Origin: Clostridia bacterium
GTDB taxonomy: Bacteria; Bacillota; Clostridia; Christensenellales; UBA1242
Length of the DNA stretch: 64,000 bases
Direction of reading: 5' to 3'
Assembly (NCBI GenBank): GCA_050872785.1
Contig: JBNMHO010000001.1
Coordinates: 128,004 to 192,003, forward strand
The position numbers and the translations under genes are program-made. Every line of letters starts with the position of its first letter. The stretch's first letter is position 1. Shown here piece by piece: positions 16,214-52,575 of this stretch. The notes below the pieces were generated by a model. That model was not told the origin of the DNA. It was given only the letters and a program-made list of their open reading frames with translations, and ran no database searches.

Positions 16214-16214
16214 C

Positions 16215-16832: not shown

Positions 16833-16838
16833 AATATT

Positions 16839-16847: not shown

Positions 16848-16907
16848 CAAAATCAAGAATAATGCAAAGGGAAAGAGATTATTAAAAGATAATTACCGAT
16901 TATTTGT

Positions 16908-19900
16908 TTAAGCCTTAGGCCTGCCTAAATCAACCCAGAATTTCATACTTGCACTTGTCCCATACTTCTTAGTCTGAGATGCCCCACGACAGCAAAGCGA
17001 ACCGCTTGAACTGACACCTCTATTGCCATCCAAAGTATTTGTCGTGTTGTACCAAATTACATTTGTCTTTTGACAATTCACATCTCCGCCGAAACCAAGA
17101 ACTTCTTTACGTCTCCAAGTTACAGTAATGCCTCCACCGTCCTTAAATGTTATATTTTCACAAATGTAATCTTGATCATTATTGCATCTTATTCTTGAAA
17201 CTTTTTTGTGATCACTATGTCTGATCCAGTGTGCTGTGTTGTAGTGATTGCCCTTAAAGAGTATATGGCAATAGTAATAATTTTGCGACCCCTCATCCAG
17301 CGTTACTATTCTAGCATATTCGGCGTAATACTTCAAATAGGTTCGTGGATAAATGTTAACATTTCCAGTAATATGATCGGCAACGACAAGTGATAGGCTA
17401 AGATAACACGAACCAAGCCAAACTGAACCGTAGATGAAACCAGAGTTTTCCTTTATAATGCCAGCCCAAATGTTAATATCATACATATCAATTGATGACA
17501 CTTCCCCCGTAACATAAAGCGCAAAATTATTAGAGGATGTTTCTGATGTACCATTTGCACAAAGTTTGCTATTCCCCTTAATTGTAATTGTTGCATTGCC
17601 AAAGATATAAACCCCATTTGAAGTAGAACCACTATAATCCACATCATCATTAAATTTTTTGCTGTAATCGGTGCGTCCGCCCGTATTATTTGCAATCTGT
17701 GCGCCGTTTTCCATTGTTAAGGAGCCGCTGGCATTGAAGTATGCAGCACCGCCATGTAAAGTTGCTGTGTTGTTTAGAATTTTTGCACCAGTGCCACTCA
17801 TTGTAAGTTTTCTGTTGCTTTTGAAGTACACGCCGCCGCCATTTGCTTCTGTTTTGTTATTTTCAATGACGCCGCTTACTGTAAGGTCACCTATATCAAC
17901 ATACACACCACCACCATTATACTTTGCTGTGTTTTGAGTTTGAGATGACGAGCCAACAGAACCGCTTATTGTCCCGCCCGCTGCGAGATACAATGCACCG
18001 CCGTTTGTGGTTGCACGGTTGCCATAGGCTGTTCCGCTGAATGTTATGCCAGCTCCCGCATAGACTGCGCCGCCATTTGAGGCTTGAAGTCCACTAAGAG
18101 TGCCACCGATTGTTGAGCCACCCGCATTTGATGAGAGGCAAATTCCCCCACCGTCTTGTGCTACGGTTTTAATGTTTCCATTATTGTCTTTTGAGCCATA
18201 AATTTGCCCAGTGAATTCGAAACTTCTACCGGCGTAAATTCCGCCACCGTTGCCGTCTGTTGTGTTGCCTGCAAAGTAACTATAGACTGTGACTGAGGAG
18301 GAGCCATTTGCAATATACATTCCGCCGCCGCTTGAGGTTGCAGAGTTTTCTTGTATGGCATGGCTGCTGTCATTTCCAGTGAACTCCCATGTGACAGAGC
18401 CGTTGAGATACACACCGCCACCTTGGCTTGCTTTATTTCCATAGATTGAGTAAGCATTATTTGAACTATCGCTGACGCTGTCTTTCGCTGTGCCACCGTT
18501 CATATAAAGTCCGCCGCCGCCAACTTTTGCACCATTGTATTTGATGTATCCACCAATAAGATTGAATGTGCCACCATTTACATACACACCGCCGCCCTCA
18601 GTTGCATAGTTGTAACTGATTAGGCTACTTGCTTGCATTGTAAATGTGCCGCAATTGCCAACATACACACCGCCGCCTAGGTTTGCTTTGTTGGAGCAAT
18701 TTTCTTCCGTTGCAGCAGTTTTTGCTGTTACACCGATTGTGCCTTGCGTCATATTGAAACTTCCGCCACCAACATACACCGCACCGCCGTTTACAATAGA
18801 AGTCGAGCCGTCATATTGATATTTGTGTCTTATCATTGTGCCGCCATTGAAGTTTGTAGTGCCACCATTTGTTGCAACTGCACCACCGTTTTTGGCTTTG
18901 TTGTTTTCGAAGTTGGCTGCAATATTCACCGTGCCGCCCGACACATAGATTGCCCCACCGTTTCCGCCACGAGCCGAATTTTGTGTGAAGGTGACTTTGG
19001 TAGAGTCATAGATTTCGACCGTTCCGCCAGTTACCGCCAAAGCACCGCCATTCACCGAGTAGTTGTCGTTGAACTTAATTTCTGAAGATATGGAACTATC
19101 TGCACTGCTGATAGCCACATTTCCACCGCCAACTGCAATCGCACCACCCATTTGAGTTGAACCAGTGTTGGTGTAGTTCACTGCAAGAGTTCCGTCATTA
19201 AATCTCTTACCGAACAAGCCTGCGTAAATTGTTGTTGTGCCAATTGTGTAAATTGCTCCGCCCATATTGTTTGCTTTGTTGGATACAAAGATTACACCTG
19301 TGCCAGTTGCTCCAGTGTAGGTTGACTCTTTTTTACTTAGAATTCTAAGTGTGCCAGTTGTGTAGATTGCACCACCTTTGTCGCTTGCTGCATTGTTTTT
19401 GAATAAGATTGCATTTGCAAAGGTGTCGTGCTTTGAGTTGACTTTTCCCTCGCTCACGTATTGTGCTGCATTGTCGCCGCTTTCAAGTTTTACTGTGCCG
19501 TGGTTTGCAATGCCGCCACCATTTGGAGCGAAGTTGTATATCACTACTCCGCCGTTTAGGCTGAGGGTTCCGCCGTCTGCAACATATATGCCGCCGCCCT
19601 CACTGCCCGCAGAGTTGCCCGCCCCACGATTGTCGTTGATGTAATAGTAAGAAACCCCGTCTTGCACTTTCCCATAAGAGTTGTAGGATATTCCTCTCTT
19701 TTGAGATGTAACTCCCACACTTCCCGCTGTTGCAATCTCTTTATAGGCTTCATTGAGGAACTTTTCTGCACCGATAATTCCGTTTGCAATTTCAAGAGTT
19801 GCGCCCTTAGCCACATAAATTCCGCCGCCATAAACTGAAGCGTCATTGTAGCTTATTTGTGCGTCACTTAATATAACTGTGTTGCCGCCTATGAACAATG

Positions 19901-22900
19901 CACCGCCATTTTCTGCAATGTTATTTATGATTTTTGCTGAAAGAGCAATAGGGTTTGCATTGACCTCTGATGTGCCGACCAAATAAACCCCGCCGCCGTT
20001 TGTGGCTTCATTGTATGAGATTTCGCCGCTTATCAATTGAACATTGCACACATCAACAAATGAAAGTTCTGCATACACACCACCACCGTTTGCTGCATTG
20101 TTGCCGTGACTTGTAAGTTCTTTAATAAGATTTGTTTCATTTTGATTGTATTTGAGTTCTGCTCCGCCAATTATTGCACCACTGCCGTTCATTGTGAAGT
20201 GACCGCTTGCTGAAACAAACACGCCGCCGCCTTTGTCTGTTGCAATGTTGTTTGAAACTTCGCCGCCGGTCATTGTGAATGTGCCACTCATAACACAAAC
20301 ACCACCACCATTTGCTGCTTTATTGCCACCTATTGTGCCGCCAGTCATTGTAAATGTGCCACCCGCAACACAAACACCACCGCCGTTGTAACCTTTGACT
20401 TCTTCATCGTTTTTCCCTGTATTTGAGCCAGTGATTGAGCCAGCTTCAAGTGTAAGAGTTGATGATGTAAGTGAGCCACTGCCTGAACCGTTATCGTAAA
20501 GATATACACCGCCGCCGTTTTGGGCATTGTTGCCAGAGAGCGTTGCACCACTTATCGTGACTGCCGAGCCGCTGATGTAAAGTCCACCGCCGTTTGTGGC
20601 GTCGTTGCTGGAAATTGTTACATTCGAGCCAAGGGTAAGTTGGTTTGCGTCAGTGTATATTTTTGAATTTTCAATGCACAAGCCGCCACCGTTTGTGGCT
20701 GTGTTATTTGTAATTGTAACATTGCCGTCAAATGCGACTCTGCCGCCTGCTGTGAGATAAATTCCACCGCCGTAAGTTGCACTGTTGCTTGAAATTTGAA
20801 CGCCGCCATTAAGCACCACTTCACCGCCTGCAACATACAATCCGCCGCCGTTTCCAGTTGCTGTGTTTGAAACTATATTTGTTTCAAGTATCAAAGTGCC
20901 GCCTGCGACATGCACACCACCACCGTTTGTCGCTTTGTTGTTATCCGACAATTTGACAAAACTTGGAATAGTCAATGTGCCGTTTGCAAGGTAAATTGCC
21001 CCGCCGTTTGCTGCACTGTTGCCAGTAAGAGTGACCGTGCTTATTGTATTTGATGTGCCGAATGTTACATTTGCTCCGTCAACATACAATGCGCCGCCGT
21101 TACCTTTTGCAGTGTTGCCCGTAATAGACGAGCCATTGATATTAAGTTTTGTATTGCTGCCCACTGCTTTGATTGTTGTGTCTGTGACTGTGTTACTTGA
21201 TATTGTGACATCTGTTAGTGTTACATTTGTTTGATTGCCGTCAGTGGAATTCAAGTTGAAGATTGTTTCCGTGTCGCCGTCAGAGCCGCTGATAGTTGTG
21301 TTTGAGATATTAACTGTTGCTCCCGCCGTTGCCAAAACAATGTTTTTCGCTTTGACGTTACTTATTGTGCAGCCGCTGAGGGTTAAACTTGCGTTTTTCA
21401 CGTCAAAGAGATTGTTTGAAGTTGAGATGTTTTGGGCTGTTACATTCTTTGCCGTCAAACTTCCGCCAGTGAGTGTTGCAACTGAGATGTTGTTGCTGCC
21501 GTCTGAAGGGCCTATTGTAACATTTTCCATTGTAACACTGCCCGATAACACTTGAAGAACTGAGGACGTAGAGCCTATGATATTTACATTTTGAAGCACC
21601 AATTCGCCAGACGCCACTGCAAGCCATTGTTGTGACGAAAGTTCAAGTTTGACTGTGTATGTTGTGTCAGTGAATTTGTATTCACTTTCACCCAATTCAT
21701 TTTCACCCAATTCACATTCCGCCGACTTGATTGTAACTTTGTTTGAACTAAGGCTTGAAGTTGCGGACGTTGAAACATTGTTTTTAATTATATACACAAC
21801 ATATTTGTATTCTGAGCCCTTACCTGTTGCGGCAGAAATTGCACTGCTCATACTTTGATAGAACCTGCCACCGCTCTCATTTTCTCTTTGCACATAGAAG
21901 TTTCTTTCTGCAATGATAATGTCATGACCAGTAATTCCGCCCAAGATAAAGCAGTAAATGTTTCCGTCTGGGTCTTTCCCTTCAAAAATGTCTTCCAAAA
22001 TATAATCAGGTTTTGAAATATTTACATTGTTTGAATAAGAGCCAACTGTTGTATTATATTCTGTTGATTTGGCAGGGCTTGTAATCTTGATTTTTTGATT
22101 GTTATGGTTATAAGCCTTGTCAATTCTTATCTTCGCAAGTGAGCCTGCTGCACGTTCCAGATAAATTGAGTCGTTAATCTTGATATTTCCCGACAAATAT
22201 TCATCGTCTTTCCCTGCATTGAAAGTCATTGCAACATTGCTTGCTTGCTCGCTAAGATAAATGCCGTCACCATATTTTGCAGTGTTTGCCTTAGTCAAGT
22301 CTTCACTGTCACCTAACTTTAACATGCGAACTTCAATTTGAGATGAAGTGCTATCTGCGCCATAATTTACATAAATTGCTCCGCCTTTGCCAGTTTCAAG
22401 ATTTGCCGAGTTTTTGAACATTTTAAGATAACTTTCATCTGTTCCCTCAAAGCGTCCCATAGCGTCACTGAAGTAAATTCCGCCGCCGTCTGTTGCATTG
22501 TTTGATGAAATTTCTCCACCAGAGAATGTTGCTGCTGCTTTTGTTACATTGATGTCATTTGTAAACAATGTTGTAAGTTGCTCTGCTTTAGTTTCATCTT
22601 TTGATTTAATTTCAGCATATTTCAAACCATTTAGGAATATTCCGCCACCGTTGCCAGTTGCTGTGTTTCCAGAGATTGTTCCGCCGGACATTGTTATGTA
22701 AGTTTTATAATATGTCACTGTTGTTTTTACAGTTTCTTCACCAGCAGTTTCACCGTTTGAATTGTTGGCTAGGGTTACTTCTTTGCCGTTTACATAAACA
22801 CCGCCGCCGTCTTTGGCTTCGTTCATGGATATTTCACCGCCAGAGATATTTACATTGCACAAGATGTTTGCATACAGTCCGCCGCCATAAGTTGCGTAAC

Positions 22901-25900
22901 TTCCAGAGATTTTTCCGCCGCTTATTGTGACCGTTGACCAAATTTCCTCATTGTTTTGCTTTGACCCCGTTGCATAAATTGCACCGCCGTATTCTGCTGC
23001 ACCATTTGAAATGCCGCCCCCAGTCATTGTGAACGAAGAATTTTCAATATATACAATTCCGCCACGAAGTCCACTTTTTATGTCTGAAACAGAGGTCGCC
23101 TCGCCTTTAAGTTCTGCACCAGAGATAATGACTTCTGAACCATTCTTTGCAAGAACAATGCTTCCCTCTTGTGTTGAAGATTTGCCAGTTATAACAACAT
23201 TGTTACTCAACGTGAGTGTTGCACCGTTAACTTCAAAGACACGTCCGTCAAACTGCGAATCGGAATATACAACAATGTTCAATGTGCCGCAACCTTCGTA
23301 ACCGCCATACACTGCGTCAAAGTCGCCGTCATAGCCAATGGTTGTTGTTTGTGTAACTGCAAAACCGTTTCTGCATTTTTGATTGAACGTAACCTCGCCT
23401 TTTGCCGATAGAACAATGTTTGAAGAATTGAAGTTAATAGTATCTGTGATGTCATACTCTCCAGCGTTTGCGAGAACGAGATATTTTGAGTAGCCTTCGT
23501 CAAGTATAACAAGGTCTGCCAAAGCGCCGTCTAGTGTTTCACTTTCCGCATAAAGAATATTCCTATCAGATTTTTTGCCATAAACTTGGAAATTCTGCGC
23601 TCTTAAGACAGCACGGTCACCATTATCATTATCTACAACTGCTTTAAGTCCAAAGCCAGAGTTAATATCCAAGTTGAAGTAGTCGAGGTAGTTGAAACCA
23701 GCGGTTATGTCATCTGGCTTAAATTGCAAAATCTTATCTTCAACACTGAACTTGCCTGCTTCCAAATAGACATTTATTCTCTTCATATCTTTTTTGGTCA
23801 AATTTTGTGAAACATTCCTTGTGCTTCTGAAAAGTTTTGTCTTCGCTTCGTCTTTGTCAGCGGTCTTTATACTTACAAATGACTTATTTGTCAAAATGTA
23901 AATTCCGTCAGAAATGTCATCAATTTCGCCAGATAGAACAATACCTGTCTTAACGTCAAGTTCAGATTCTGCAGGCTTACTTTGTGTTGTGTCGGAAATT
24001 GCAATGGTTGCATTTTCGCCGTTTGAGATTGTGTTTGCGTTTTCGCCGTCTGCAATATCCAAAACACCACCCGCAACGGAAAGCCCCGCACCGATTGAAG
24101 AACCGTCTTGAAGACTATTGCCAGTGATTGTTGTCCCCTTGAGGGTTGTTGTGCCGCCAAAGGTGTAAATTGCACCGCCGCTTGCTTTGCTTGCTGCCGA
24201 GTTGCCAGTTATTTGAATTCCCACAAGTTCAACATTTCCGCCCGCAACATAAACTGCACCGCCAACGCCATTTGATGTGTTCTTCGAGAATGTTTCATTT
24301 CCGTCAGTATTTGTTCTGCTGTCGCTAACTTTTGTTATGCCGTCAAACACTGCCAATGCTCCGCCACGACTTTCTGCTGTATTTTTCTCTATGCTGCTGT
24401 TCATAATTTCCAAAGAACCATATGACACAATCGCACCACCAACAGTTGCATTGTTGCCGCTAAGGACGGAAGAACCTTTGATTGTCATTGCTCCATTTTC
24501 TGCAACATACACACCGCCACCGTTTGTGGCGCTATTGCCAGTTATTTTACAAGCGTCATCAATTTCCACCTTGCCGCTTGCAACATAAATTGCACCGCCA
24601 TTTATAGCTTTGCCGCTGTCAGAATTGCCGTTTTTATCAAATTTTGTTGAAGTTTTTATCAATGCGTTGCCAGATGAACCAAAGCCAAAGTAGCAAGCAC
24701 CGCCGTTTTCTGAAGCATAATTCGTTCTAAATGTTGCAGTTATCATTGTAACTTTTGCAGCCCCTTCAGCATACAATGCCCCGCCCATTCTTGCCGAGTT
24801 GCTTTCAAACAAGTTCTTCTCGCCAGTTTCGTTTGCTGTGCTGATATCAGTAATCTTGTTCAAGTTCAAACTTCCGTTTGCAACATAAATTGCACCGCCA
24901 TATCCGTTTGTGGAATTTGAAATGAAGTTTGTAAATTTGATTTCATGTCCTTCTCTGGAATTTAGATAAAGTGCGCCACCGTGAGCCACCTCTGTGCTGG
25001 AGGTTGCTCTGTTTTCACTAAATGTCACATCGCTTGTTACAAGTTTACCTTGTTTTTCAACTGCCACAGCACCACCTTGTTGTGCCGAGCAATTTGAAAT
25101 TGTGGAGTCACTAATATACAATTCCCCGCTGCCGCTCGTGTAGATTGCACCACCCATTGAAGATGAGCCAGCAGTTAATGTGGAATTTGAAATTGTAACA
25201 GTTCCACCCGCTTGATAAATCATTCCGCCATTGCCCGTGGCCGAGCAATTTTCGAATGTAGAACTATCAATAACAACATTTCCATCTTTAAGCCAAATTG
25301 CACCGCCATAACTTAAAACTGATTTGTCAAGATTTTCGTCTTTTACAGAAATCATGTTATCAAGATAAAGTTGGTCTGCTTTGGAATTTCTGATTGTCGT
25401 TCCGTTTGAAAGTTTGAGTGTGCCACTTGCAACATAGAACATGCTTGCACTTACGCTGCTGCTGTTTTTGCTGCCTTCCAAAATCATTGGATGACAAACT
25501 TTGCCGTCATTAAGTTTTAAGTCGTTATTTTTTAGGAAGTCGTCACTTAAACTTGTAAATTCCAAACTTCCTTTCACAACAAACATAAAGTCTTGATAGC
25601 CGCTTTCTCTCAAAACAACTGCCCCGTCTGCTGTTTCTCTGCAATCGACAAGAACGATGTCCTTGTTTGCTGCGACTTTAACTGTGTTTTGAGAATTTAT
25701 AACTTGTCTGCGGAAAAGCCCGAAGTAAGTTCTCTCGTTTTCTTTTGCTTGTTCAATAGCATCATTTATTGAAGCGAACATTTTGTATTTGCCATTTTCG
25801 TCCGCTTTAAGCGCACGGATAATTCCCGCCATGGCGTAAATATCTTTATCTCGCTTTGTGAAAACGATAATGTCCGAATCAAACTTGCCCGCCCCTGCAA

Positions 25901-28900
25901 AATCTGCGTTTGCAAATGTTGCAACCTTTATTTGAGCGTTGTCGCCAAGTTCTTCTTCCATAACAATATAAATCTTGCTATGTTTGCTTGAAATGTATTT
26001 ATCTTTAACATTTATAACAGCCTTTGTGGACAAGAACACTCTGTCTGAAATATTTGCTGCATTGTAAACACTAAGTGAATTTGACTCGACTGCTTCCACA
26101 TTTCCAGAAGTATTGGTCTTTTTTGCTCCAGCGACAAATATTCCAGCATAATCTACATTCTCATTTCCATTCCAGTTGCCGTAAATTTCACCGCCAAAAA
26201 TTTCCACCTTTGAACCCGTTGCAACAAAGATTGCTCCACCTTTGTCCGAAGCCACATTGTCTGTCAATGTTCCGCCATAAAGTTTGAGAGCCTTATCTGC
26301 ATAAATTCCGCCGCCCAAAGTTGCATTGTTGCCAGAGATGAGCGAGCCAGCATTTTCAAGCGTTGTGCGTTCAACATCGTTATAAATCTCAAGCGAGAGT
26401 TTGTCGCCAGTGGCATAAATTCCACCGCCCATGTTCCCCGCAACGTTGTTCAATATTTTCCCGTCACGCAATGTAACTTTGCCATTTGCCACATAAAGTC
26501 CAGCACCGTTTTGGGCGTTGTTATTGTCTATTGTTGCACCTGAAGAAAGTTCCACTTCGCCATAGTTCCCGCTTGCTGTCACATCTTCAACATACACGCC
26601 ACCGCCGTTTCCAGTTGCTGTGTTATTCAAAATGAGCGAAGCAGAATTTGTAGCAATAAGTTTGCCGCCAACGACATACACACCACCACCATTTGTTGCA
26701 TTGTTGCTTTCTATTGTTGCGTCATAGAGATAAAGCGTTCCATAAAGTGCCACGCCACCACCGTTCAGAGTGGCTTCGTTGCCAAGAACCCTTGCCCCTT
26801 GCATCAAGTAAACTGTTGTGCCAACTGCTGCATAAATTCCCGCACCTTCTGAAGAAGTGTTGTTTGAAATTTCAAAATTTGAAGAAATGTCAAGTCTGCC
26901 GCTTTCCACATACACACCACCGCCGAAGTTTGTTGCAGTGGAATTTGAAATTTTCCCATAGCCGAGCCAAGAAGCATTTGCCGTTTTGTTGTTTGTTGCA
27001 AAGTACACACCCGCACCATTTGTTGCAGTGTTTCCAGAAATCGCAACTACATCACTTGACTTAAGTGTTCTTAAAATGCCGTTTTCGCCAACATACACAC
27101 CGCCGCCAAGAGTTGCAGAGTTTGCTGAACCCAAATCGTCACTTTGACCTATGATTGCATTGTATATATCCACTTGTCCAACAAGTGTGCGACCATTAGC
27201 AGTTCTTGAGCCGATGTAAATTGCACCGCCGTTTGCAGTTGCTGCGTTGCCGCCTATAACTGTTTTGCCATCAATTTCCACAAGCCCACTTGCTACATAA
27301 ATTGCACCGCCATTTGTTGCAGTTCCGCCAGTTAGTGTAGAGTTAAGAATTGTTACATTTGCTGTGGAGCCTATTTGTGAAATATTAACATAAATAGTGC
27401 CGCCGTTTTCGCTTGCAGTTGAATTTGAAATTGTTGAATTTGTGACATTAAGTTTTGCTTGTCCGTCAATATAAATTGCACCGCCATTGACACTTGATGA
27501 GCCATTTATATTTGAAGTTTTGATTGTCACAACTGAGGTGTTTGCTGCATAAATTGCACCACCTCTGCCACTTTCGCCACTTGTTACACAATTTGAGATT
27601 GTCGAATTTTCAATTTCGAGTTTGCCGTCATAAATTGTTATTGCACCGCCGTTTGCTGCAGTGTTATCTCTTATTTCAACCCCGTCAAGGCGAAGAGTTC
27701 CGTTGCCACTTACGCAGAACAAACTTGCGTTTTGCGAATTACTTGTGCCGACTATTGTTATGTTGCCTGCTGCATATTGTGACACCCCGCCAAAGATTAC
27801 ATCGCTTGACACAATGTCAAATACCCAATCGGTTAAGCTTTCTGCACGAGAAAGTGTAACACCTAAGTCGTTTCCAGAAACGATTGTTACAGACTTATCA
27901 ATAACAACTTTTTGCTCTAGAACAAAGTCATCTCTTATGATTATTGTTTCACCGCCAAGGCATTGTGACAAGGCTTCATTAAGTGAAGTGAATTCGCCAA
28001 CAACATCTCCCTTGCTATCTCGCACTTCAATCATGTCTTCCACAACAATGTTATAACTTAAATATATTTCGCTGTTTGCACTGTTTTTGAGGAAGTTGTA
28101 GAAAGAAAGATTTGTGATAATTGTGCCGCTTGCCGACAGGCTGCCATTTCGTGGAGTTATCTTTGTTCCGTTTGTTGCTGCAAGGAAGGAAATTTCGTTA
28201 TAGACTTTTGCAGTTTTCAAATTGCTTCCCACAAAGGCATTGTTTTCGCTGCCAAGTGTAACATTTGTTTTTGGCAGAATAACATATTCAATGTTGCTGC
28301 CCTTAAACGCTTCGCCGCCAACTTTGTTTGCCATTTCAAGGCTTATTTTTTGTGGCAAAGATTTGCAATTTTCAAAGGCATTTTTGCCAATTTCTGTTAG
28401 TTTTTCAAAAGCAATTTCGCCATGTTTTCCAAGGATTGTAAACTCACCGCAGCCTTTGAAACTTGCTTCGCCTATTTTCTCTATTTCATTTTCAAATGTA
28501 ACTTGAGAGAGCATTGTGCAATTTTCAAAAGCGTGTGCTGGAACTGTGTTTGTGTTGCCAAGAACTTTTACAACATAAGCATTTGCTGGTTCATAATTTT
28601 GCCCGTCAAATGTAATTGTGTCGCCTAGACTTGAAACTTCTTTTGTGCTGTCGCCAAAGTAAGAAACAATCAAGGTCTTGAGGTCTTGCATCATGGCAAA
28701 GCAGCCGTCAAGTTGTCTGACAGTTTTTGAAACTTCCACAACTTCAGCATGAGAACCTGCAAAAGCAAGTGGCATAATTCCAGCGACTTCTTCAATCTTA
28801 ACATAACTATTTTTTGCGATGTATGTGTGAAGCATTGTGCCACTTGGAGTTGCAACAAGAACATTGCCCATATAGTCCACAAAGTAGTTGCTTTGAGGGT

Positions 28901-37900: not shown

Positions 37901-40900
37901 TGACTAGGCAAGGAATGTCTGCTGGAAGTGACTCCTCAAGGTTAAATTGCAAGTTGTCTTTGAGCATGTAATATTTTGTAGGCTCGCTGTCGTCTGTTGA
38001 AGTGACTGAGTAATAATATTTGTCATAATGTTCCGTTGCAGAAGTTATTGTGTCTCCCTTTCTATTGACGTAATTTCCGTCTGAACCCATTGCTTGCAAA
38101 TAGATAGGCACACCAGTTGATTCGCCGTCTTCATCAACTTCATAATAGTCAACAAATTTGTCGTCTGACGTTTTGTCAATATGATAACCCATCTTTGTTC
38201 TTAAGACGCCGTTTACATATTCCCACCTTTTTGCGAATGTTGAAACATTTTGCATTTCGCACTTGCCAGCGATGTGGAATGCTCCGCCATAATTTGCTTC
38301 GTTTCCATACAATTTAACATTTTCAAGACGCAAAAGTCCAGTGTTCAAGTTTATGCCGCCGCCATATGTTTCTGCGTCATCTGAGATTGCTAAGTTATTT
38401 GTTATGAATGCATATCTTATTGTGCTTGCACTGCTTGGCGAGCCAGAAATATAGACACCTGCACCTAAGAGGGCTTTGTTACCATTGATATTTGTCCATT
38501 CTGTTTCATTTTTTGGAGTGAAACTTATGTTGCTGTTTATGGCAATTCTTGCTAGGTCAAGAACACAAATGCCGCCACCCGTTTGGGCTGTGTTTTGAGT
38601 AAAGGACGATTGTGAAATATTTACAAGCACATCACTTCCACTTGCAACAAGTCCGCCACCAAATTCGTCTGCAGTGTTTCCGTCAAAGGAACAATTTGTC
38701 AAACTGTGAGCAACACTTGAAATGCCACCATAAATTGCCATTGCCCCGCCAGATTTTGCCGAGTTGCCGCCAGTGAACTGAGCGTTTGTGGTGGTTATCA
38801 AACTTTGAGTTCCGACATACACGCCGCCGCCGAAGTTGCTTGCAGTGTTTGCAACATAGGAAGCATTGCTAAGTCTAAGTTCAGATTTTTCAATATAAAT
38901 TGCCCCGCCATGCCCGTAGGTTGCTTTGTTTTGATTAAATCTTGCAAGAGAGTTTTCTCTGCCAGCGATTGTATTTGTTTCTTCAACACAATTTCTAAGA
39001 GCAATAGCACCGCCAATTTTTGCAGTGTTGTTTGTCCATTCCAAGTCACGAGTTGTGCTTGAGATGTCAAGTTTTACGCTTTCGGCATAAATTGCACCGC
39101 CATATGTGTTAGCAAGGTTCCCTGTGAAAATTCCGCCATGGAGTGAAAGATTTCCGCCAAGCATTGCAATGGCACCGCCAAGACCTTCTGTTCCCGAAAC
39201 AGAGCAGCCAGTGAATGTTGCGTAGTCAATATTGATTATTGAACTATCTGCATAGATTGCACCACCCATTGCTTGAGAGGAAGTATATGTGTTTTTGCAG
39301 TCATTAAAGGCCACGTTGTCGATGTTGACTGTTGCGTGTGCTGCATTTATCACGCTGCCATATTGCGTGGAAGAATTTGTTATGCCCGAGAACACAACAT
39401 TGTCTTTTATGTCAATATTTCCGCCATTAGTTAAAATCAAAACATCTTTTGCATTTCTTGAATTTTGTTCGACAAAAGTAAGGCTATTTAAATCACCGCC
39501 CATTAGGACCAAACTGCCAGACACGTTGAACATATTGCCAGTGAGTCCGCTTGCACGATAAATTGTAACATTGCTTGAAGCAAGTTTGAGAGTAAGTTTT
39601 TGGTCTTCAAGAATATTTAATGTTTGTCCAATAGTCAAAGTTGTTTCATTTGGCTGCACAACAACCATAACTCCGTCAGCGGAAGTTGAATGGCTTGCAG
39701 CGTTTGGTGCTTTGTCATTCAAAGCGTCTTGCAACGCCATATCCAAACTTGCATAATATTTGTGGAAGCCTGTGCTGTAATAATCTTTTATGTATGCACA
39801 AGCACTTGCCCAAACAACTTCAAATTCAACAATTTCGCTGTCAATTTTCATACTTAATGGGGTTTCTTTTCTTTCACCTTTATACAGATAATATGAAACA
39901 TACTTCCCGTCAAGATAGATATCGTCAAAACTTGGCATTGTATATTGTGAGCCAATGGTGTATGATGTGTCGTCTTGAAGATAAGCCGTGTCATCTTCTT
40001 TTACAAGTTTATAATTTTCAGAACCGATGTATCTTGCATTTATATTGCCAAGATTTATTTTAATGGTTGCCACATTGCTTTGCCACACGGCATAAACTTC
40101 TATTGTAACGCCGTCAATTATTGCATTTACAACGTCACTTAGGTCAGCCCCTTCGGATAACACAAAGTTATATCCCAAGTCATATTGTTTTGTGAGGTTA
40201 TTTTTAAGTTTTATAACATATCCAACATGATTGTATTCTGCCCTTTTCCAAGATGTAGTTTGTGGGAATTCAACAGTTTCGCCATAAGTTGCATTGACGA
40301 CTATTGCGCCGCCATAAGTTTGTGACGAGCCCATAGCATTGCTGTTAAATCTTATTGTATAAGCATATGGCTTCCAAATTGCAAAGAATGTTATATTTTC
40401 GTTTGCAAGATTTGAAACAGTTACATTTGGAGAGGCAAAAGTTGGGCGATACAAATCGCTATCGCTTCCGCCACCAGTGACATAGTCGTCATAATCTACA
40501 AAGTTGCTTGACCAGCCAAGGAAAATGTAACCCTTCTTAAATGGGCCAAGGTCACTTTGGGTCGTTTGATTTTTTGCAGTTGGCAAAGTTACAGAATAAC
40601 TATCTCCATTTGCTTCAAGATTTTTTGCTGCAATTTCTGTTGCACTAGAGCCATAAATTCCGCCGTTTAGGTCGAAATATGCTTTTGCTTGTGACCAAAT
40701 TGCATAAACCGTGAACACATCTCTCTTGTCAATTTCAAAGTCTTTCAAGCAATAGTTAACTGTTGAGTTTTCGTCTTCCCAGCCGCCGAAAGTTCCTGTT
40801 CCAGTTGCTGTTACAAGTTTTAGGTCGCTTGCTTTTATTTTTTGACCGAATTTAACTCTAACTGCAATCTTCCCGTCATATTCCGTTTGAGTGCCGCCGA

Positions 40901-43900
40901 CATTTGAAAGGAACGCATTAAAGTTGCTGTCCAAGTTCACACTGCCGTCCTTTGCGTCAAACACAAACATGACATTGTTTCCCAGCCACTCTACTTCAAA
41001 ATATCTATCCAAACTTGCCGCCACATCACTGTTTGCCACTTCAAAGCTTTCTCTTTCAAAGTTTGCAAAGACTTCCGAACTGATATTTATTTTCTTATAA
41101 GCAGTTGTCCAAGAGATAAGTTGAGTTCTGTCACTGCTTGCTATCCAGACAAGATTATCATAGGAACTTGTTTCAAAGGTGTCTTTAACCTTTCCGCCGT
41201 TGCCGTCAATAACGACTTTCACATCGTTGTAAACTGCATAAAGCACAAATGTTTGGGCGGCTTTTATGTCTTCGCTGTTTGACAAAACATAGGACAACAT
41301 ATTGCCGCTATTTTCGATAGGAGTGACATTTATATCTCCGCCGTCTGTCACCGACCAGCCAGCAAAGGTCATATCCCCCTTAAATATTTTTGTTGTGTCA
41401 ATGTTGACATTTGTTAGGTCAAAGCCCGCACGCAAAAGCGAGTATTCAATGTCAAAAGTTATGTTAAAGAAATATGTTCCAGTGCCACCATAATTTGCAT
41501 AGTTATATTCAAAGTCTGCCGCTCTGTCACCCTTATATTCGCCACCCAAGAGTTCAAGTCTAACGGAGTAAATATTTTCCACCCAGTTGCTGCTGAATAC
41601 AATTTCGTCTGCGTCAAAGTCTGCTTGCACAAAGAGGTTGTTTGTGCGAGAAAATTTAATCGTGTAGTCTTTTGGAATAACTCTTGAATTGTGAGAGAAG
41701 CCGTCAAAGTTATATACAAGCCCAGTATTTTCGTTGTAATAACTTGCAAAGTCTTCCTCATTAAACAAACTTGAAAGTGCAATTTCGCTGTCATATTTTA
41801 CAGTTTTTGTTGTAACAAATTTGCCAAACTCGTCAGTGAATTTGACTGTCACATCATTTTGCTCCCAAACTGGATACAAATCTACTGTGCCGTTTAGGTC
41901 GTATGTAAAGTTGAAAGTTCCACTTGGGCTGACAACCTCAACTGCCACTTCGCCTGTGTTTGGGTCTGTTATAACATTGCCATCATTATCCTTAATTTCC
42001 TGAGTTGTAAACAAGAAGACATTTCCGCCCACGCCTCTTATTTGATTTGCCACATTTTTCTCTGTTGTCCAGCCGACATGTGTCCAGCCGTCAAGGCTAA
42101 GTTGTCCCGCAAGAGTTGATAGTTCATAGCAGTAGAAAGTGCTTGAACCCATGTAGCCCGAGATATTTCCCGTTGCGTCTGCTGAGTATCCATTTGCCTT
42201 TTGTGGGAGGGCGTCTGTGCCGCTTTGATAATTTACGGTGTAATAGTTATTTGCCCACGCAAGAGTAAGCCAAATTTCAAAATGTCCGCCGTTTGTGTCA
42301 GAGGTGTAGAGTTTGTCAAAGTCCATACTTGAAGTGTCAACATCTCTAGACAATCTATAGCCGTCTTTGCTCACATAGACCGAGTCAGTTGGAGTTGTGT
42401 TTTCTTTGCCCGAGTAGTCAAGAAGCAAACGATAAGTAAAGTTCTTGCCAAGGACAGAAAGTTCTGGATAGTTTGCAAGCAAAATATTATCACCCAGTTT
42501 AAGATTTGAAACAACAAGTCTGCCCTCTGAGTCAATGCTCATTGTTGAACTGTCAAAGTTTTCAAGGTCTGCAGAATATTTTACAGTTTCGCTGCCGCCG
42601 ACCTTGCTGCCCGATGGGTCAATTACAAGTCTAATTTCTTTGCTTTCCCAAACGATTGAAAGTTCAATGTCAGTTGATGGCATACGGAACGAACGTTGTT
42701 TTAGAAGATAAGTCCCCTTTTCGTTTTCTGGAATGACGACATTTGTTTGATAATACACTGCCCTCATAACTGGATAAGTTTTGCCAAGGTCGTCTGTGTG
42801 AACAAGAGCATTTAGGTTTATTCCGCTCAAATTAACATCTGACGCATAGTCCACTCTAAATGTTGCTTCACTTGCGTTCACATAGTCCGTGCCGTGGATA
42901 TTGCCAGTAAATGTGGTGTCATTAAACTTAATTTTAACTTCAAAGTCTGTTGGCACCCAAACGCCATAGAATTCATACACATCGCTATAGCCAAAACTTG
43001 CCATATCGAAAATGCTGTTTTCCGAATTGAAAATCATTTCTTCTGCTGAATTTTTAAGCACAAAATAACTGAATTTGCAACCCAAAAATTCTTCATCATT
43101 GCTAAAGTGATAAAAATATTTTGAAAGGTCAATTCTTTGACCAAAGTTGACAGTCGCAGTGCTTTCTCTTTCACCGATGTTATATTTGTTTTGGCTCATG
43201 TAGAAGTCAAAGGACACTTCGTCCCCCAGCCAATCGCAATATAGATATGCAACTTTTGCTGACCTATCGACATTAAAGTATTCTTCCAAAAGTGCAACGG
43301 TCAAGTTATCGCAATCATAAGTGTATGCCCCACTGTTTAGGCTGCTTCTATAGCCATTTATTGTATAATGTTCTCTTGAGAAATTTACATATCCGCCACC
43401 AATTTTGTAGGCGTAACCGTCAAGTCTTATTTCTCTTTCGAACATGACTTCAGAGCCATAAGGAATTTTTGCCACTGCTTGATAATTATCGTCAAGAGAA
43501 TTGTAAACTCTTATTTCAATAATTTCATTATAGTTTGCAACATATCTTATAGGTTCAGAAGTTGGGCAACTTTCTGTTGAAGTTGGAGCCTTTGTTTCCG
43601 AGCCTTTTGTGTAGTTTTTCAGAACATAATCTGGACGAGAAATATATTCCGCACTTGGAAGTGTGAATGTTTGTCCAACATAGACATAAATTTTAAGAAG
43701 ATTTCCGACCATTTCAAATCGTTGAATATTTGTTTTATGTTCGTCTGTGCTTATGGTGTAAAGTGCTGCCAAGTCGCCATTTACGCCGTTGTTGTAGAAT
43801 ACGCCATTTGTTCCTAGGTCAATGGTGACTGTTGCAACGTTAAGGTCCCAATGAGCATAAAGATTTAGAGTATATGTTCCGTTTTGTTCCACAACGCCAT

Positions 43901-46900
43901 TTTCTTGAAGAACTTTCACTTCATTCAACACTTCGCCACCCGAAGTAGTTGTCATCCAGCCGTTTATATAATATCCCGCAAGGGTGTATGCTGGGGTTCT
44001 GTTTATGCTAACAGTTGAAGCGTAGTCTGACTCTGATGAGAAAGTTACTGGACTTGACGCACCGCCTGCCGATTCGTTGTTTTTGTGGAGCAAGATTTTA
44101 ACTTTTGCTGGTGAGAAAACTGCACACAAATTTGTTGCAATTTTTGGAACAGTATAACTCTTGCCCGCTTCTATTATGTCATAACTGCCGTCATAGTTCG
44201 TGTCACCCACAACGCCCGCAACCCAGCCACGGAAAACGTAGCCAAAAAGATAAGGCACGCCATTTTTCTTTATATCTTGATAACGGTTTGTCGAGTTGTC
44301 AAATTGTCTTATAAGGTCGTCATAAGAAAGCGTTTGCCCCGCAGTAACTTGCATGCCGTTTACATCGCTTCCAAACTTTTCGCCCAAATGATTTCTAAGT
44401 TCAATGACAAAGTTTGTTGAATACCAACTTGCATTGAATATCAAATTTTCAGAAATTTCAACCGCTGCATACTCTCTGCCCGCAACATTAAGCCAAGTGA
44501 GGAAAGCATAGTTGCTTTCTTGCAAATTAAAGCGATATTGCGTTGGGTCAATAAGTTCGCCGCAGTAGAAGTCAAGTGTTGGACGCCAACTGCCCGAAAT
44601 TGATTTGTATTCTTCTGGAAGGTCAATTTGCCCCGAAGGAGTGGACAAACTCGTAAGATTTACACCCGTTGGAAGATTTGGATTAAAGGTTATTGTTGAT
44701 TTCCAAATTGCATACAAAGTAACTGTGTTCGTTGTGGTCAAATAATTATCCACAACTTCACGAGTGAGGTTAAATCTGTTCCCCGCAACAAGGAACTCTG
44801 CGTCAGAAGTCCTCTCATTCGTGCCATTTGCTGCCCACCAAGAAGCAAAGTTTTGGCTCTCTGTAGCAAGTTTTGTTACATCATTTTCAAACCACCAACC
44901 AACAAAAGTTGCGCCCGTTCTTGCAAATTTTCTTGAAGGAATTTCAAACCCAGTTGCATAGTCTTGCTTGTAAATTGATGTTTTGACAACATCATAGGAA
45001 AGTGAAACAAAGTCGTTTTCACCCTCTGCAAGTTCCCCACCATTTAGGTCAAATCTGACGGCAAAAACTTCTTGCCAAACAATACTCAAAATGTCTTGAC
45101 TTGCGTTGAAGTCGTCTGCCGAGCCAGTGTAAACATATGTATATTTGTCGTTTGAGCTGTCATATGTCACTTGTCCCGACACAGTTTTGTAATCATTAAA
45201 TCTATAGCCCGCTTTTGTGTAACCCGCCGAAGGCATAATTTCAATTCCGCTCTTTACGTCAGCGTAAGTCACAGTTCTGACAAGTGTATTTTGAACACCG
45301 TTCACAAAGCCATAACTTGAAAGAGGTTTTGCCGCTTTTGAATTTTCCCAACTGCCGCCGTCAAGTTCAATTTGAAGATTGTATGTTTTGACTGACCACA
45401 ACGCATTTATAGTCACTTCGCCGTCACCCAAGTCTTCATCATCAAATATTCCGCCGCTAAGACTGCTTAACAAGACAATATTCTTGTCAAAAGCAACAGC
45501 ATAAGATTTATCGCCATAGGAATAGACGAAAGATTTTAAAACCCAATATGTTTTTTCACCATTTTCAGTGACGGAAATTTCTGTTTGCGAATAGGCACTT
45601 GAGCCAAAAGTAAATTCGCTTCCATAACTTACAGTCATATCTTCGTGAGTATTTGGACCCATAGCGTCAAGATATTTGACAGTTATTTCTGCCCCGACCC
45701 AAATTGCATAATATGTTGTGTCGCTATCAATAACTATTGCTCCGCTAACGCTGTCCGTTCCGCTTGAATTTGTTGACCAACGGCTAAAGATTTTGTGCGA
45801 ACAAGCAAAGCCATATTCGTCAGCCGTTTTAAGAACTAGAACATTATTCCCCACTTGATTTATTGCAATTTTGCCGTTTTCGTCTGCCAAAATGTGGTCT
45901 GCGCCAACATATTCATATGCCGTTTTGCTGTTTGAGCCGACATTTTCATAAAGTGAAACTGTATATTTGAAAACTGGAGTTAGAGTGTAAACAAATTCAT
46001 ATTCTGCTTTTGAACTATCCACCACAACTCTGTCAAAAATGTTCATATAATTTTCGACAAGTTGAGGAACTTCAATAACGAACTTTCCATTTGCTTCAAA
46101 ATAAGCGTAGTTGTCTTTACTTCTTAAATAATCTAATTCATGCAAAGTTTGAGTTGGAAGTGATGAAACTTCAACAAGTCTGTTTGCAGCATTATATGAA
46201 ACTGTATTTTGGAAAACTTTTGAGCCGTCTGAATTTAGGACTTCAAGTCTGACATCTCTAAGTCTCCAATCTGCCACTGCCGAAATTCTTTTGCCAATGT
46301 TTTCTTTTGCAAAACCATAGCCCACGCTGTCATCTGCGACAAATGTTGCAAGTTTGCTCTCTATCCCATTTCCGCTTACTCGCCAACCGTCAAACTGATA
46401 AACTGCTTTGTCGGAATACAAGTTTATTTCGTCTTTTGTTGGCAATGTGACAGTTGCCCCATATGTAACTTCTCTGCTTGTTGGAACTGTGCCAGTGATG
46501 TTGTAATTTTCGCCTGTTTTGCTTCCGCTGAAGCTTAAGACAAACCACACTGCAAATAAGTCAACACTGTCTTGTGCTCCAAAAAGTTCTACGAAATTTT
46601 GCTTTGCATCTTGAGCGACAACTTTTCTTCCCGTGCCGTCTGGTTTTGTATTGAAAGAATCAAATTTACTTCCTTCAAGACTTGACAAAACTAATGAAAG
46701 TTCGCTTCCATTTATTGCTATATTCCCATCTCTGTCCGAATAAATTTTTGTAGATTTTTCAAGAGTTTTTGTTGCGTCTGCATAAAGGGTTGCTGTTTTA
46801 AGTTTGACCCATTTTGCGACCAAAGTCATATCCGCTCTTGCAATCAAATTTTCTTGATCATAGTTATACAAAACGCCGTCACTTGTCCAGCCGTCAAACA

Positions 46901-52574: not shown

Positions 52575-52575
52575 C

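What the first reader, a model, noticed from the sequence alone, without database searches (positions are those of the whole stretch)
16908..49811. One uninterrupted 32.9 kb gene encodes a 10,967-aa, roughly megadalton surface protein
Seen: a single minus-strand frame runs from ATG 49811 (GGGAG 7 nt upstream) to TAA 16908. It has no internal stop and covers 51% of the window. Established: bacterial proteins above 10,000 aa are rare. The recurring motifs belong to extracellular families: Listeria-Bacteroides/Flg_new repeats, Chlamydia Pmp-type GGA[ILV]/FxxN beta-helix repeats, and BspA-type LRRs. Inference: it is a very long membrane-tethered fibre or adhesin, or a contact-dependent effector scaffold, in an AT-rich Bacillota/Mollicutes-like organism. 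I do not recognise this overall order as a described protein: Q/N tail, TM helix, ~3,000 aa of Flg_new, alternating cassettes, LRR, four fused beta-helices, orphan tip. The gene sits directly upstream of recR.
Basis: partly seen in the sequence, partly recalled or inferred. Interest (0 to 1): 0.85.

Follow-up and report, generated by a model that had tools for sequence, protein, structure and literature searches.

The report
Giant tethered surface fibre, swappable tip
A gut Clostridia-type bacterium really does encode one unbroken 10,967-residue (1.18 MDa) protein, most likely a membrane-anchored cell-surface fibre. Its stalk is conserved between strains, its outer rods diverge faster, and its last 138 residues come in at least two unrelated versions.

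Summary
ORF 16908..49811 (-) is open for 10,967 codons. Other assemblies carry orthologues called at 10,941 and 10,954 aa in the same gene neighbourhood, and dN/dS is 0.09-0.31 against them.

Layout:
- A basic Q/N/P-rich tail of 253 aa, then one TM helix.
- A 3,140-aa beta-rich stalk with scattered Flg_new modules. It is not "3,000 aa of Flg_new".
- Seven PMP-type beta-helix blocks of about 4,100 aa in all, alternating with spacers.
- One BspA-type LRR.
- A junction and a 138-aa terminal domain.

No catalytic, sortase, autotransporter or toxin domain was detected.

New here:
- Between strains whose recR is 98.5% identical, the stalk is 88-95% identical. The distal 3,100 aa are only 67-84% identical.
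- The terminal domain is either conserved (88%) or replaced by unrelated sequence.
- Distant orthologues (26-29% identity) keep the same module order over at least 6,900 aa.

Best reading: an N-terminally anchored adhesive fibre with a diversifying, cassette-like tip. This is inferred, not shown.

A 2023 preprint already notes 10-30 k aa Clostridia gut proteins with these repeat types. I therefore rate it an uncharacterised variant of a known kind and moderately interesting.

The parts
16908..49811 (-). Whole giant gene: 10,967 codons plus TAA. Predicted protein 1,175.7 kDa, pI 4.7.
49848..49876 (-). Sigma-70-like promoter match (TTTACA-17-AATAAT) in a 1,026-nt, 28.8% GC intergenic region. A consensus match only.
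49818..49822 (-). GGGAG ribosome-binding site, 6 nt before the ATG.
49053..49811 (-). aa 1-253: basic (pI 11) low-complexity tail with Q 20%, N 20%, G 11%, P 9%. Inferred to be cytoplasmic. The start MDKNLFG is conserved in close orthologues and recognisable in distant ones. dN/dS 0.31-0.34.
48972..49052 (-). aa 254-280: the only hydrophobic helix, flanked by KKKK and KKK. Inferred to be a signal-anchor, N-terminus inside.
39552..48971 (-). aa 281-3420: membrane-proximal stalk. It is beta-rich and not internally repetitive, with scattered Flg_new-like modules. The first module follows the TM helix directly. This is the most conserved part between strains (88-95% aa identity, dN/dS about 0.09-0.11).
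46812..47204 (-). aa 870-1000: the only Flg_new / Flg_new_2 pair above Pfam's cut-off (E 1.8e-17). TIGR02543 also matches.
38262..39551 (-). aa 3421-3850: PMP-type beta-helix block 1.
35850..38261 (-). aa 3851-4654: spacer 1. Has Flg_new-like motifs. No Pfam or PDB match.
34074..35849 (-). aa 4655-5246: PMP beta-helix block 2 (Chlam_PMP E 5.7e-12; POMP_repeat E 2.5e-16).
32631..34073 (-). aa 5247-5727: spacer 2. No match.
31653..32630 (-). aa 5728-6053: PMP beta-helix block 3.
27828..31652 (-). aa 6054-7328: spacer 3. Trp-rich, with Flg_new-like motifs. Contains the LRR module.
28218..28559 (-). aa 7085-7198: BspA-type LRR_5 (Pfam E 3.9e-21). It gave the only PDB sequence matches, 4fs7 and 4gt6.
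26049..27827 (-). aa 7329-7921: PMP beta-helix block 4. About 30% identical to hundreds of 0.8-1.4 k aa Beta_helix / Chlam_PMP / NosD proteins.
23928..25478 (-). aa 8112-8628: PMP beta-helix block 5, preceded by a 190-aa spacer (aa 7922-8111).
22227..23255 (-). aa 8853-9195: PMP beta-helix block 6, preceded by a 224-aa spacer.
17457..21458 (-). aa 9452-10785: PMP beta-helix block 7, the longest. Rungs of 25-27 aa read GGG(V/I)Y...N.A..N. The AlphaFold2 model has pLDDT above 90 over most of aa 10450-10710, lower (50-90) from there to about aa 10785, and three short strands per rung.
17325..17456 (-). aa 10786-10829: junction ending in GNVNI(Y/F)P..YL.YY. This is the last stretch that aligns between the two tip types. 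The flanking aa 10638-10837 is the most variable part between strains (40-70% identity).
16911..17324 (-). aa 10830-10967: terminal domain, rich in Cys, His, Trp and Tyr. It is 88% identical in the 10,954-aa lineage and unrelated (22%) in the 10,941-aa lineage. No Pfam hit at E <= 10. The last 267 aa (10701-10967) gave no hit in 1.84e9 representatives. AF2 confidence is low (pLDDT 30-50), with beta strands predicted.

Best explanation
This is a genuine, selected, single-polypeptide cell-surface fibre of an uncultured gut Clostridia-type bacterium.

Shown:
- One 10,967-codon ORF, reproduced at nearly the same length (10,941-10,967 aa) in independent assemblies.
- Purifying selection along its whole length.
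- One N-terminal hydrophobic helix after a basic, disordered Q/N/P tail.
- Everything after the helix is acidic and built only from module types found in extracellular proteins. These are Flg_new / InlB-B-repeat-like modules, seven PMP-type parallel beta-helix blocks and one BspA-type LRR.

Inferred mechanism:
- The helix acts as a Sec/SRP signal-anchor. The tail stays in the cytoplasm and about 10,690 residues are threaded outwards.
- The conserved 3,100-aa stalk carries the protein through and beyond the wall.
- The rigid beta-helix rods have about 158 rungs. At the standard 4.8 A rise per rung that is about 75 nm. Alternating with spacer modules, they push the C-terminus a few hundred nanometres from the cell.
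- The distal rods and the C-terminal 138-aa domain make contact with a host, particle or neighbouring-cell ligand.

The tip-contact step rests on the divergence gradient. Divergence and dN/dS rise from base to tip, and the terminal domain behaves as an exchangeable cassette with at least two unrelated alleles. This is the pattern expected for the exposed, ligand- or immune-facing end of an adhesin.
For: Real gene:
- Searches show the ORF. One search shows no long DNA repeats.
- Searches show same-strain contigs from other runs at 99.99% identity.
- Searches show complete calls of 10,941 and 10,954 aa in the same synteny.
- dN/dS is 0.11 over codons 1-6,753.
- dN/dS is 0.09-0.11 in the N-terminal 3,000 aa and 0.27-0.31 in the C-terminal 3,100 aa.

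Topology and surface location:
- A single hydrophobic segment at aa 254-280.
- Tail pI 11 against pI 4.7 for the rest.
- Small proteins consisting of a TM helix plus one Flg_new module show the same anchor arrangement.
- Flg_new, Chlam_PMP / POMP_repeat and LRR_5 hits.
- The beta-helix block matches 876 proteins, many annotated Beta_helix / NosD / Chlam_PMP.
- AF2 gives a confident three-stranded solenoid for aa 10450-10785.
- Rung period is 25-27 aa, with 104 GG[AGS]-hydrophobic motifs.

Conserved design:
- Orthologues at 26-29% identity are collinear over aa 30-6,880 with few gaps and the same Pfam content.

Tip behaviour:
- recR is 98.5% identical between lineages, while the distal region is 67-84% identical.
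- The terminal domain is 88% or 22% identical depending on lineage.
Against: - No experiment, transcript or peptide evidence is available.
- No ligand-binding domain of known specificity was found.
- The tip has no homologue outside this species group, and its fold could not be predicted.
- AF2 failed on the stalk, with pLDDT 35, so its rod-like shape is assumed.
- Foldseek gave no significant PDB match for the beta-helix model. The top, non-significant hits were Ag43 and pectin methylesterases.
- Length is conserved to within 0.25% and module order is fixed. That is unlike many repeat adhesins, which vary in copy number, and could point to a structural role instead.
- Positive charges flank the TM helix on both sides, so topology rests on the overall charge bias and on domain types.
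Confidence: 0.6

Rival explanations
1. Contact-dependent effector delivery. The fibre would be a monoderm, Sec-anchored analogue of CdiA-type or polymorphic-toxin filaments. The exchangeable C-terminal 138 aa would be a toxin or effector released onto a neighbouring bacterium or host cell.
For: - The extreme C-terminus is replaced by unrelated sequence between close lineages, with a sharp breakpoint after a conserved junction motif.
- The terminal domain is better conserved (88%) than the 330 aa before it (58-71%) within one lineage, as expected of a cassette.
- A long beta-helical filament precedes it.
- The domain is rich in His and Cys.
Against: - No ORF fits between the stop codon and recR, which lie 46-80 nt apart in every lineage, so there is no adjacent immunity gene.
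- Neither tip allele matches any Pfam family at E <= 10.
- Pfam reported no TPS, VENN, LXG, Rhs or other pre-toxin module anywhere in the protein. Tiles were scanned at E <= 0.01, or E <= 5 for aa 281-3480, and only the best 25 families per tile are listed.
- No conserved partner or secretion gene was found. Distant orthologues sit next to enolase instead.
- No processing site was identified that would release a tethered domain.
Confidence: 0.12
2. Structural envelope or spacing element rather than a ligand-specific adhesin. The fixed-length fibre would build a coat, keep cells at a set distance, or hold cells together in chains or aggregates.
For: - Length is conserved to within 26 aa across lineages that differ by up to 33% in the distal region.
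- Module order and size are preserved at 26-29% identity over 6,900 aa with few gaps.
- The gene sits among housekeeping genes, and its GC3 matches its neighbours'.
- The stalk is under strong purifying selection.
Against: - A purely structural element would not be expected to show a base-to-tip rise in dN/dS with allelic replacement of the terminal domain.
- No S-layer (SLH), cell-wall-binding or self-association module was recognised.
Confidence: 0.15
3. Artefact or pseudogene: a chimeric or collapsed assembly, or a decaying gene that is open by chance.
For: Some related contigs carry a single disruption:
- One-base frameshifts in L081 and L082.
- One in-frame TAA in L083.
- A split gene call in the MAG GCA_002437645.1.
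Against: - At least three independent full-length calls of 10,941-10,967 aa exist.
- Indels between strains keep the reading frame. All aligned segments translate without internal stops.
- dN/dS is well below 1 everywhere.
- There are no long repeats that could collapse.
- The disruptions are single events on short, low-coverage contigs, and homology continues straight across them.
Confidence: 0.02

Closest known systems
"Large" (10,000-30,000 aa) Clostridia genes from mammalian gut metagenomes, noted in West-Roberts et al. 2023 (bioRxiv 10.1101/2023.11.21.568195)
   Same: The size class, class-level host, gut origin and listed domain types agree. Those types are Listeria-Bacteroides repeats, leucine-rich repeats, and regions like a fibronectin-binding autotransporter adhesin (ShdA), which is beta-helical. 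The suggested role, adhesion to other cells, also agrees.
   Different: That paper gives about one paragraph: no architecture, anchoring, orthology or population analysis. I cannot tell whether this particular family was among the proteins it surveyed. The dockerin and YG repeats it mentions were not found here.
Chlamydial polymorphic membrane proteins (Pmp; Pfam PF02415, TIGR01376)
   Same: GGA(I/L/V)-type and FxxN-type repeat motifs form parallel beta-helix rungs. The repeat models hit every beta-helix block. From general knowledge, Pmps are adhesins.
   Different: Pmps are type V autotransporters of a diderm, with a cleaved signal peptide and a C-terminal beta-barrel. Here there is no barrel domain, the anchor is an N-terminal TM helix, and the host's neighbouring genes resemble those of Clostridia, which are typically monoderm. 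Seven helices are strung together in one chain ten times longer.
Giant Gram-positive surface proteins: S. aureus Ebh (about 10,000 aa) and Apilactobacillus kunkeei Giant1-5 (3,000-8,000 aa; PMC12863079)
   Same: They are megadalton-scale, extracellular, elongated proteins built from many imperfect modules in Bacillota. Giant1-4 carry a beta-solenoid domain at the far end from a conserved C-terminal segment. An estimated length of 0.2 um is given for Giant3.
   Different: Those proteins have cleaved signal peptides and C-terminal anchoring or conserved segments (the Giants' DUF5776; Ebh's C-terminal TM helix, from general knowledge). They are largely alpha-helical or made of Ig-like repeats. 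Here the polarity is reversed: the N-terminus is anchored and the C-terminus is distal. The modules are Flg_new, PMP and LRR types, and no sequence homology was detected.
CdiA / two-partner-secretion filaments and other polymorphic toxin systems
   Same: A very long beta-helical filament has an extreme C-terminal domain that differs between close strains after a conserved junction.
   Different: There is no TPS domain, FHA repeat, VENN or other pre-toxin motif, TpsB partner or downstream immunity gene. The organism is probably monoderm.
BspA-like LRR surface proteins and InlB-type B-repeat proteins
   Same: One LRR_5 module (E 3.9e-21; PDB 4fs7 and 4gt6) and Flg_new B-repeat-like modules are present.
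   Different: These are single small modules within a protein 10-20 times larger. The other defining parts of those families were not found.

Membership tests
Chlamydial Pmp / type V autotransporter | Repeated GGA(I/L/V) and FxxN motifs (PF02415 / TIGR01376) | tested here: met
   Chlam_PMP reaches E 5.7e-12 and POMP_repeat E 2.5e-16, with hits across the beta-helix blocks. There are 104 GG[AGS]-hydrophobic motifs at 25-27-aa spacing.
Chlamydial Pmp / type V autotransporter | C-terminal autotransporter beta-barrel | tested here: not met
   The Pfam scan of the last 967 aa at E <= 0.01, and of the last 200 aa at E <= 10, finds only Chlam_PMP or nothing.
Chlamydial Pmp / type V autotransporter | Cleavable N-terminal signal peptide and a diderm host | tested here: not met
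   A 253-aa tail precedes the only hydrophobic helix. The best retrieved RecR matches are Clostridia.
CdiA / polymorphic toxin system | Variable C-terminal domain after a conserved junction | tested here: met
   aa 10830-10967 is 88% identical in one lineage and 22% in another. Homology ends after GNVNI(Y/F)P..YL.YY.
CdiA / polymorphic toxin system | Recognisable toxin or pre-toxin domain (TPS, VENN, LXG, Rhs and similar) | tested here: not met
   No such Pfam family was reported for any part of the protein in the tiled scans. Neither tip allele has a hit at E <= 10.
CdiA / polymorphic toxin system | Immunity gene immediately downstream | tested here: not met
   recR starts 46-80 nt after the stop codon in all lineages.
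Sortase-anchored (LPXTG) Gram-positive adhesins | C-terminal LPXTG motif, hydrophobic segment and charged tail | tested here: not met
   There is no LP.[TSA]G anywhere and no second hydrophobic segment.
Right-handed parallel beta-helix (pectin-lyase-like) fold | Three-stranded rungs stacking into a solenoid | tested here: inconclusive
   The AF2 model of aa 10450-10785 has pLDDT mostly above 90 with three short strands per roughly 26 aa. Homologues carry PF13229 and PF05048. Foldseek against PDB gave no significant match, and handedness was not inspected.
Listeria-Bacteroides repeat (Flg_new, PF09479 / TIGR02543) proteins | Flg_new domains above the curated threshold | tested here: met
   aa 931-1000 gives E 1.8e-17 (63.6 bits against a cut-off of 27). 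Other copies are sub-threshold.
BspA-type LRR proteins (PF13306) | LRR_5 repeats | tested here: met
   aa 7085-7198 gives E 3.9e-21. PDB entries 4fs7 and 4gt6 match the same region.
Large Clostridia gut-metagenome genes (West-Roberts 2023; a descriptive group) | 10-30 k aa, Clostridia, mammalian gut, Listeria-Bacteroides repeats plus LRR plus ShdA-like region | tested here: inconclusive
   Size and domain types are met. Related contigs carry human-gut sample labels. Class-level placement rests only on RecR similarity. Identity with the proteins in that survey could not be checked.

The most novel reading that the evidence does not exclude
The fibre may be a modular contact device of a monoderm gut bacterium. 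A conserved, fixed-length, Sec-anchored stalk would present an exchangeable C-terminal cassette. That cassette would either recognise strain-specific targets or be delivered as an effector. This would be a CdiA-like logic evolved independently, with no two-partner secretion and no adjacent immunity gene. The conserved prion-like Q/N cytoplasmic tail would cluster or regulate the fibres from inside the cell.
Probability: 0.12. Interest if true: 0.8.

Novelty: new variant of a known kind. Interest (0 to 1): 0.52.

Why it matters
- **Cost and selection.** The gene takes 33 kb, plausibly around 1% or more of the genome, though genome size is unknown. It is kept intact under purifying selection in several uncultured gut lineages. 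Related contigs carry Hadza human-gut sample labels. The function is therefore probably central to how these bacteria live in the gut.
- **A testable target.** The stalk is conserved, the distal rods diversify, and the terminal domain comes in unrelated alleles. This singles out a short 138-aa piece that could be expressed and tested for binding or toxicity.
- **A clean example.** It shows that a megadalton protein can be a true single gene whose length is conserved to 0.25%. It also documents PMP-type beta-helices used outside autotransporters, in what is probably a monoderm.
- **Annotation caveat.** Fragmented assemblies split this gene into pieces, which hides such genes from protein catalogues.

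Tried and rejected
- **Shorter homology queries.** An 800-aa query returned only hits of 1,397 aa or less. This suggests a length window that hides giant relatives. The near-empty result for aa 6001-7000 is therefore not evidence of orphan status.
- **recR scan of GTDB genomes.** The best match was 62-63% identical and no giant ORF lay beside recR. It says little about taxonomic novelty.
- **Exact look-up of recR.** It found nothing in one index but was present in another.
- **Local Flg_new profile.** An iterative HMM seeded from the one good Flg_new copy found only itself.
- **AlphaFold2 on aa 281-1250.** A three-sequence alignment gave pLDDT 35 and was unusable.
- **AlphaFold2 on the tip.** Low confidence.
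- **Foldseek against PDB.** Nothing significant.
- **PDB sequence and profile searches.** Searches of the whole protein and of three spacers built from orthologues found only the LRR match.
- **Tip search.** The last 267 aa (10701-10967), searched against 1.84e9 representatives, gave 0 hits. That library keeps one representative per 50% cluster, which may be a giant with the other tip.
- **Horizontal transfer.** Rejected, because GC3 matches the neighbours.
- **Dedicated exporter.** Rejected as unsupported. The divergent ABC pair is not conserved next to distant orthologues, which sit beside enolase.
- **Other.** Rfam and tRNA scans of the window were empty. A paper search for GCA_002437645 found nothing.
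Full report
**1. Observation**

- The minus-strand ORF 16908..49811 is listed at 10,967 aa with an ATG start. Its translation has no internal stop and ends in TAA.
- GGGAG lies at 49818-49822, six bases before the ATG. An in-frame stop lies two codons upstream.
- The gene fills 51.4% of the window.
- recR follows 75 nt downstream on the same strand, with all four RecR Pfam domains.
- The predicted product is 1,175.7 kDa with pI 4.7.

**2. Is it real?**

*Assembly collapse is unlikely.*
- The longest DNA repeats inside the gene are 40-62 nt at 60-90% identity. They encode the GGG(V/I)Y rung motif.
- Paralogous protein blocks are at most 42% identical.
- Only two trivial tandem repeats are present.

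*The gene is not foreign DNA.*
- GC3 is 0.35, within the neighbours' range. The higher overall GC comes from second codon positions, that is from the Gly/Ala/Ser/Thr-rich composition.

*Independent assemblies reproduce it.*
- The window's housekeeping proteins are on record from an NCBI contig of 193 kb.
- Two Logan contigs from other runs (L110, L111) are 99.99% identical to the window. One keeps 6,259 codons open to its contig end.
- Related strains carry complete gene calls in the same neighbourhood.
  - 10,941 aa in L112 and L120, which are two assemblies.
  - 10,954 aa in L116/L122, on a 362-kb contig.
  - The neighbourhood is DUF1846, a VTT-family gene and recR on one side, and an ABC exporter pair and Tex on the other.
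- Contig ERZ808245 NODE_108 (L084 = L123) is collinear with window 59733..29534 at 93.7% nucleotide identity. It stays open for all 6,754 codons fetched. Only three indels separate it from the window, all in frame.

*The reading frame is under selection.*
- dN/dS is 0.11 overall against L084 and 0.05-0.19 in every 500-codon bin.
- The last 3,100 codons give 0.27-0.31 against the two other lineages.

*Some relatives carry single disruptions.*
- L081 and L082 each have a one-base frameshift.
- L083 has one in-frame TAA.
- The MAG GCA_002437645.1 has a split gene call.
- In each case homology continues straight across the lesion.
- I read these as assembly errors or occasional inactivation. I cannot tell which.

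**3. Anatomy**

| Residues (aa) | Feature |
|---|---|
| 1-253 | Basic low-complexity tail: Q 20%, N 20%, G 11%, P 9%; pI 11 |
| 254-280 | The only hydrophobic helix, flanked by lysines |
| 281-3420 | Stalk, not internally repetitive |
| 3421-3850 | Beta-helix block 1 |
| 4655-5246 | Beta-helix block 2 |
| 5728-6053 | Beta-helix block 3 |
| 7085-7198 | LRR_5 (E 3.9e-21), within the spacer at 6054-7328 |
| 7329-7921 | Beta-helix block 4 |
| 8112-8628 | Beta-helix block 5 |
| 8853-9195 | Beta-helix block 6 |
| 9452 to about 10785 | Beta-helix block 7, the longest |
| 10786-10829 | Junction |
| 10830-10967 | Terminal domain |

*Stalk.*
- Flg_new passes Pfam's threshold only around aa 870-1000.
- Sub-threshold copies lie at about aa 330, 1584 and 3066.
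- About 16-18 F.GW and LYA.W motifs are spread from aa 331 to 6,860.
- Flg_new-like modules are therefore interspersed with unassigned beta-rich sequence. "3,000 aa of Flg_new" overstates it.

*Beta-helix blocks.*
- Self-comparison defines seven blocks totalling about 4,100 aa.
- Rungs are 25-27 aa long and read GGG(V/I)Y...N.A..N.
- Chlam_PMP and POMP_repeat hit them repeatedly.
- Block 4 matches 876 proteins at about 30% identity. Many of those carry Beta_helix, NosD or Chlam_PMP domains.
- AlphaFold2 on aa 10450-10967 used 26 paralogous and homologous rows. It gave pLDDT above 90 over most of the first 260 residues, lower values to about aa 10785, and three short strands per rung.
- Foldseek found no significant PDB match. 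Its best, non-significant hits were Ag43 and pectin methylesterases.

*Spacers and other modules.*
- The spacers carry Flg_new-like motifs.
- The LRR_5 module gave the only PDB sequence matches, 4fs7 and 4gt6.
- Pfam and NCBIfam tile scans, and PDB sequence and profile searches, detected no catalytic, sortase-signal, S-layer, autotransporter-barrel or toxin domain.

**4. Relatives and evolution**

*Distant orthologues.*
- L085 and L086 are only 26-29% identical, yet collinear with aa 30-6,880.
- Identity is an even 0.2-0.45 per 100 residues with few gaps.
- Their Pfam content is the same.
- Both ORFs are open to the end of the fetched DNA, at least 6,911 and 6,652 aa.
- L083, L085 and L086 sit directly downstream of enolase, not next to recR or an ABC pair. 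No partner gene is conserved with the family.

*Closer lineages show a clear gradient.* Flanking genes are nearly identical between them: recR 98.5%, DUF1846 97-99% and the VTT gene 94-96.5%.

| Lineage | Stalk, N-terminal ~3,000 aa | Distal ~3,100 aa |
|---|---|---|
| 10,954 aa | 95% identical, dN/dS 0.09 | 84% identical, dN/dS 0.27 |
| 10,941 aa | 88% identical, dN/dS 0.11 | 67% identical, dN/dS 0.31 |

*The tip.*
- The most variable stretch is aa 10638-10837, at 40-70% identity.
- The final 138 aa are 88% identical in the 10,954-aa lineage. They are unrelated (22%) in the 10,941-aa lineage.
- Homology ends after the motif GNVNI(Y/F)P..YL.YY.
- L117 differs from L116 just upstream of the terminal domain but shares that domain with it. 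This suggests a mosaic origin.
- Neither tip allele hits Pfam at E <= 10.
- The window's last 267 aa found nothing among 1.84 billion cluster representatives.
- Total length differs by only 26 aa across lineages.

**5. Mechanism**

*Shown.*
- One real gene.
- One N-terminal hydrophobic helix.
- Strong charge asymmetry across that helix.
- Only extracellular-type modules after it.
- Long beta-solenoid segments.
- A base-to-tip gradient of divergence.
- A cassette-like terminal domain.

*Inferred.*
- The helix is a signal-anchor, with the N-terminus inside the cell.
- About 10,690 residues are exported by Sec.
- The stalk spans the wall.
- About 158 rungs at the standard 4.8 A rise give roughly 75 nm of rigid rod, interspersed with spacers. 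The total reach is probably a few hundred nanometres.
- The distal end contacts a ligand on host material or on other cells.

Adhesion is the most economical reading of the module types and of the distal diversification. I put it at about 0.6.

*Rivals.*
- An effector-delivery device (0.12). The swapped tip supports it. The lack of any toxin signature or any room for an immunity gene argues against it.
- A structural spacing or coat element (0.15). The strict conservation of length and order supports it. The tip polymorphism argues against it.
- An artefact or pseudogene (0.02).

**6. Comparison with what is known**

- The repeat families are known, and giant surface proteins are known. Examples are Ebh, and Giant1-5 of Apilactobacillus (PMC12863079).
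- West-Roberts et al. 2023 already remark that class Clostridia in mammalian gut metagenomes has 10,000-30,000-aa genes. They list Listeria-Bacteroides repeats, LRRs and ShdA-like regions, and suggest adhesion. That paper defines genes above 10,000 aa as "large" and shows them in many phyla.
- I found no description of the following features. My literature search was limited:
  - this family's N-terminal anchoring with a conserved Q/N tail;
  - the fixed collinear design across deep divergence;
  - PMP-type helices without an autotransporter barrel in a probable monoderm;
  - the allelic terminal domain.
- It is not a Pmp autotransporter, a CdiA or an LPXTG adhesin. A defining feature of each was tested and not met.

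**7. Verdict**

- It is a new variant of a known kind.
- Interest is moderate, about 0.5. It would rise if the tip cassette proves to be a delivered effector or a strain-specific recognition module.

Noticed in passing
window 2062..6321 (-): A second large ORF of 1,419 aa, with only a weak, sub-threshold CvpA / Colicin_V hit at its N-terminus. It is conserved at 1,418 aa in the related contigs L112, L116 and L117. Function unknown.
   Followed up: partly
window 10231..11679 and 11694..13502 (+): Two adjacent ORFs of 482 and 602 aa with no Pfam hit at E <= 0.01. The pair is conserved in related contigs (476/599 and 482/619 aa). In L117 only a 483-aa gene is called here, and in L118 the first gene is truncated to 250 aa.
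   Followed up: no
window 49812..50837: An unusually long (1,026 nt), AT-rich (28.8% GC) non-coding region separates the giant gene from the divergent ABC exporter pair. It is 87% and 73-87% identical in the two related lineages. It has no conserved ORF and no Rfam hit. It may be a large regulatory region.
   Followed up: partly
L092 (ERZ1643251 NODE-16, 342-kb contig), 53..28735: A different giant gene, stop-free across the whole 28.7-kb locus (at least 9,561 aa, running off the locus at its far end). It has an ordinary signal peptide and is only weakly related to this one.
   Followed up: no
L083 7975..20280; L085 2371..23103; L086 9929..29884: The distant orthologues (25-29% identity) all lie directly downstream of enolase. 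In L083 and L086, BipA, an MBL-fold gene and a small multidrug-export gene lie further upstream (only enolase is visible in L085). This context differs from the window's, so the family is old and its position has moved.
   Followed up: partly
L101-L105 (e.g. L101 9959..10351): Small proteins of about 130 aa consist of a short tail, one TM helix and a single Flg_new module. This is the same anchor-plus-first-module arrangement as the start of the giant protein.
   Followed up: partly
L081 ~5778; L082 ~10311; L083 17904; L118 16317-16379: Single frameshifts or stops interrupt the orthologous gene in several short or low-coverage contigs and in one public MAG (GCA_002437645.1). Gene callers therefore report it as 0.8-3.3 k aa fragments. 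Protein catalogues probably under-count such genes.
   Followed up: partly
tool behaviour: the search for homologous proteins returned no hit longer than about 1.75 times the query. Negative results from those two calls should not be read as absence.
   Followed up: yes
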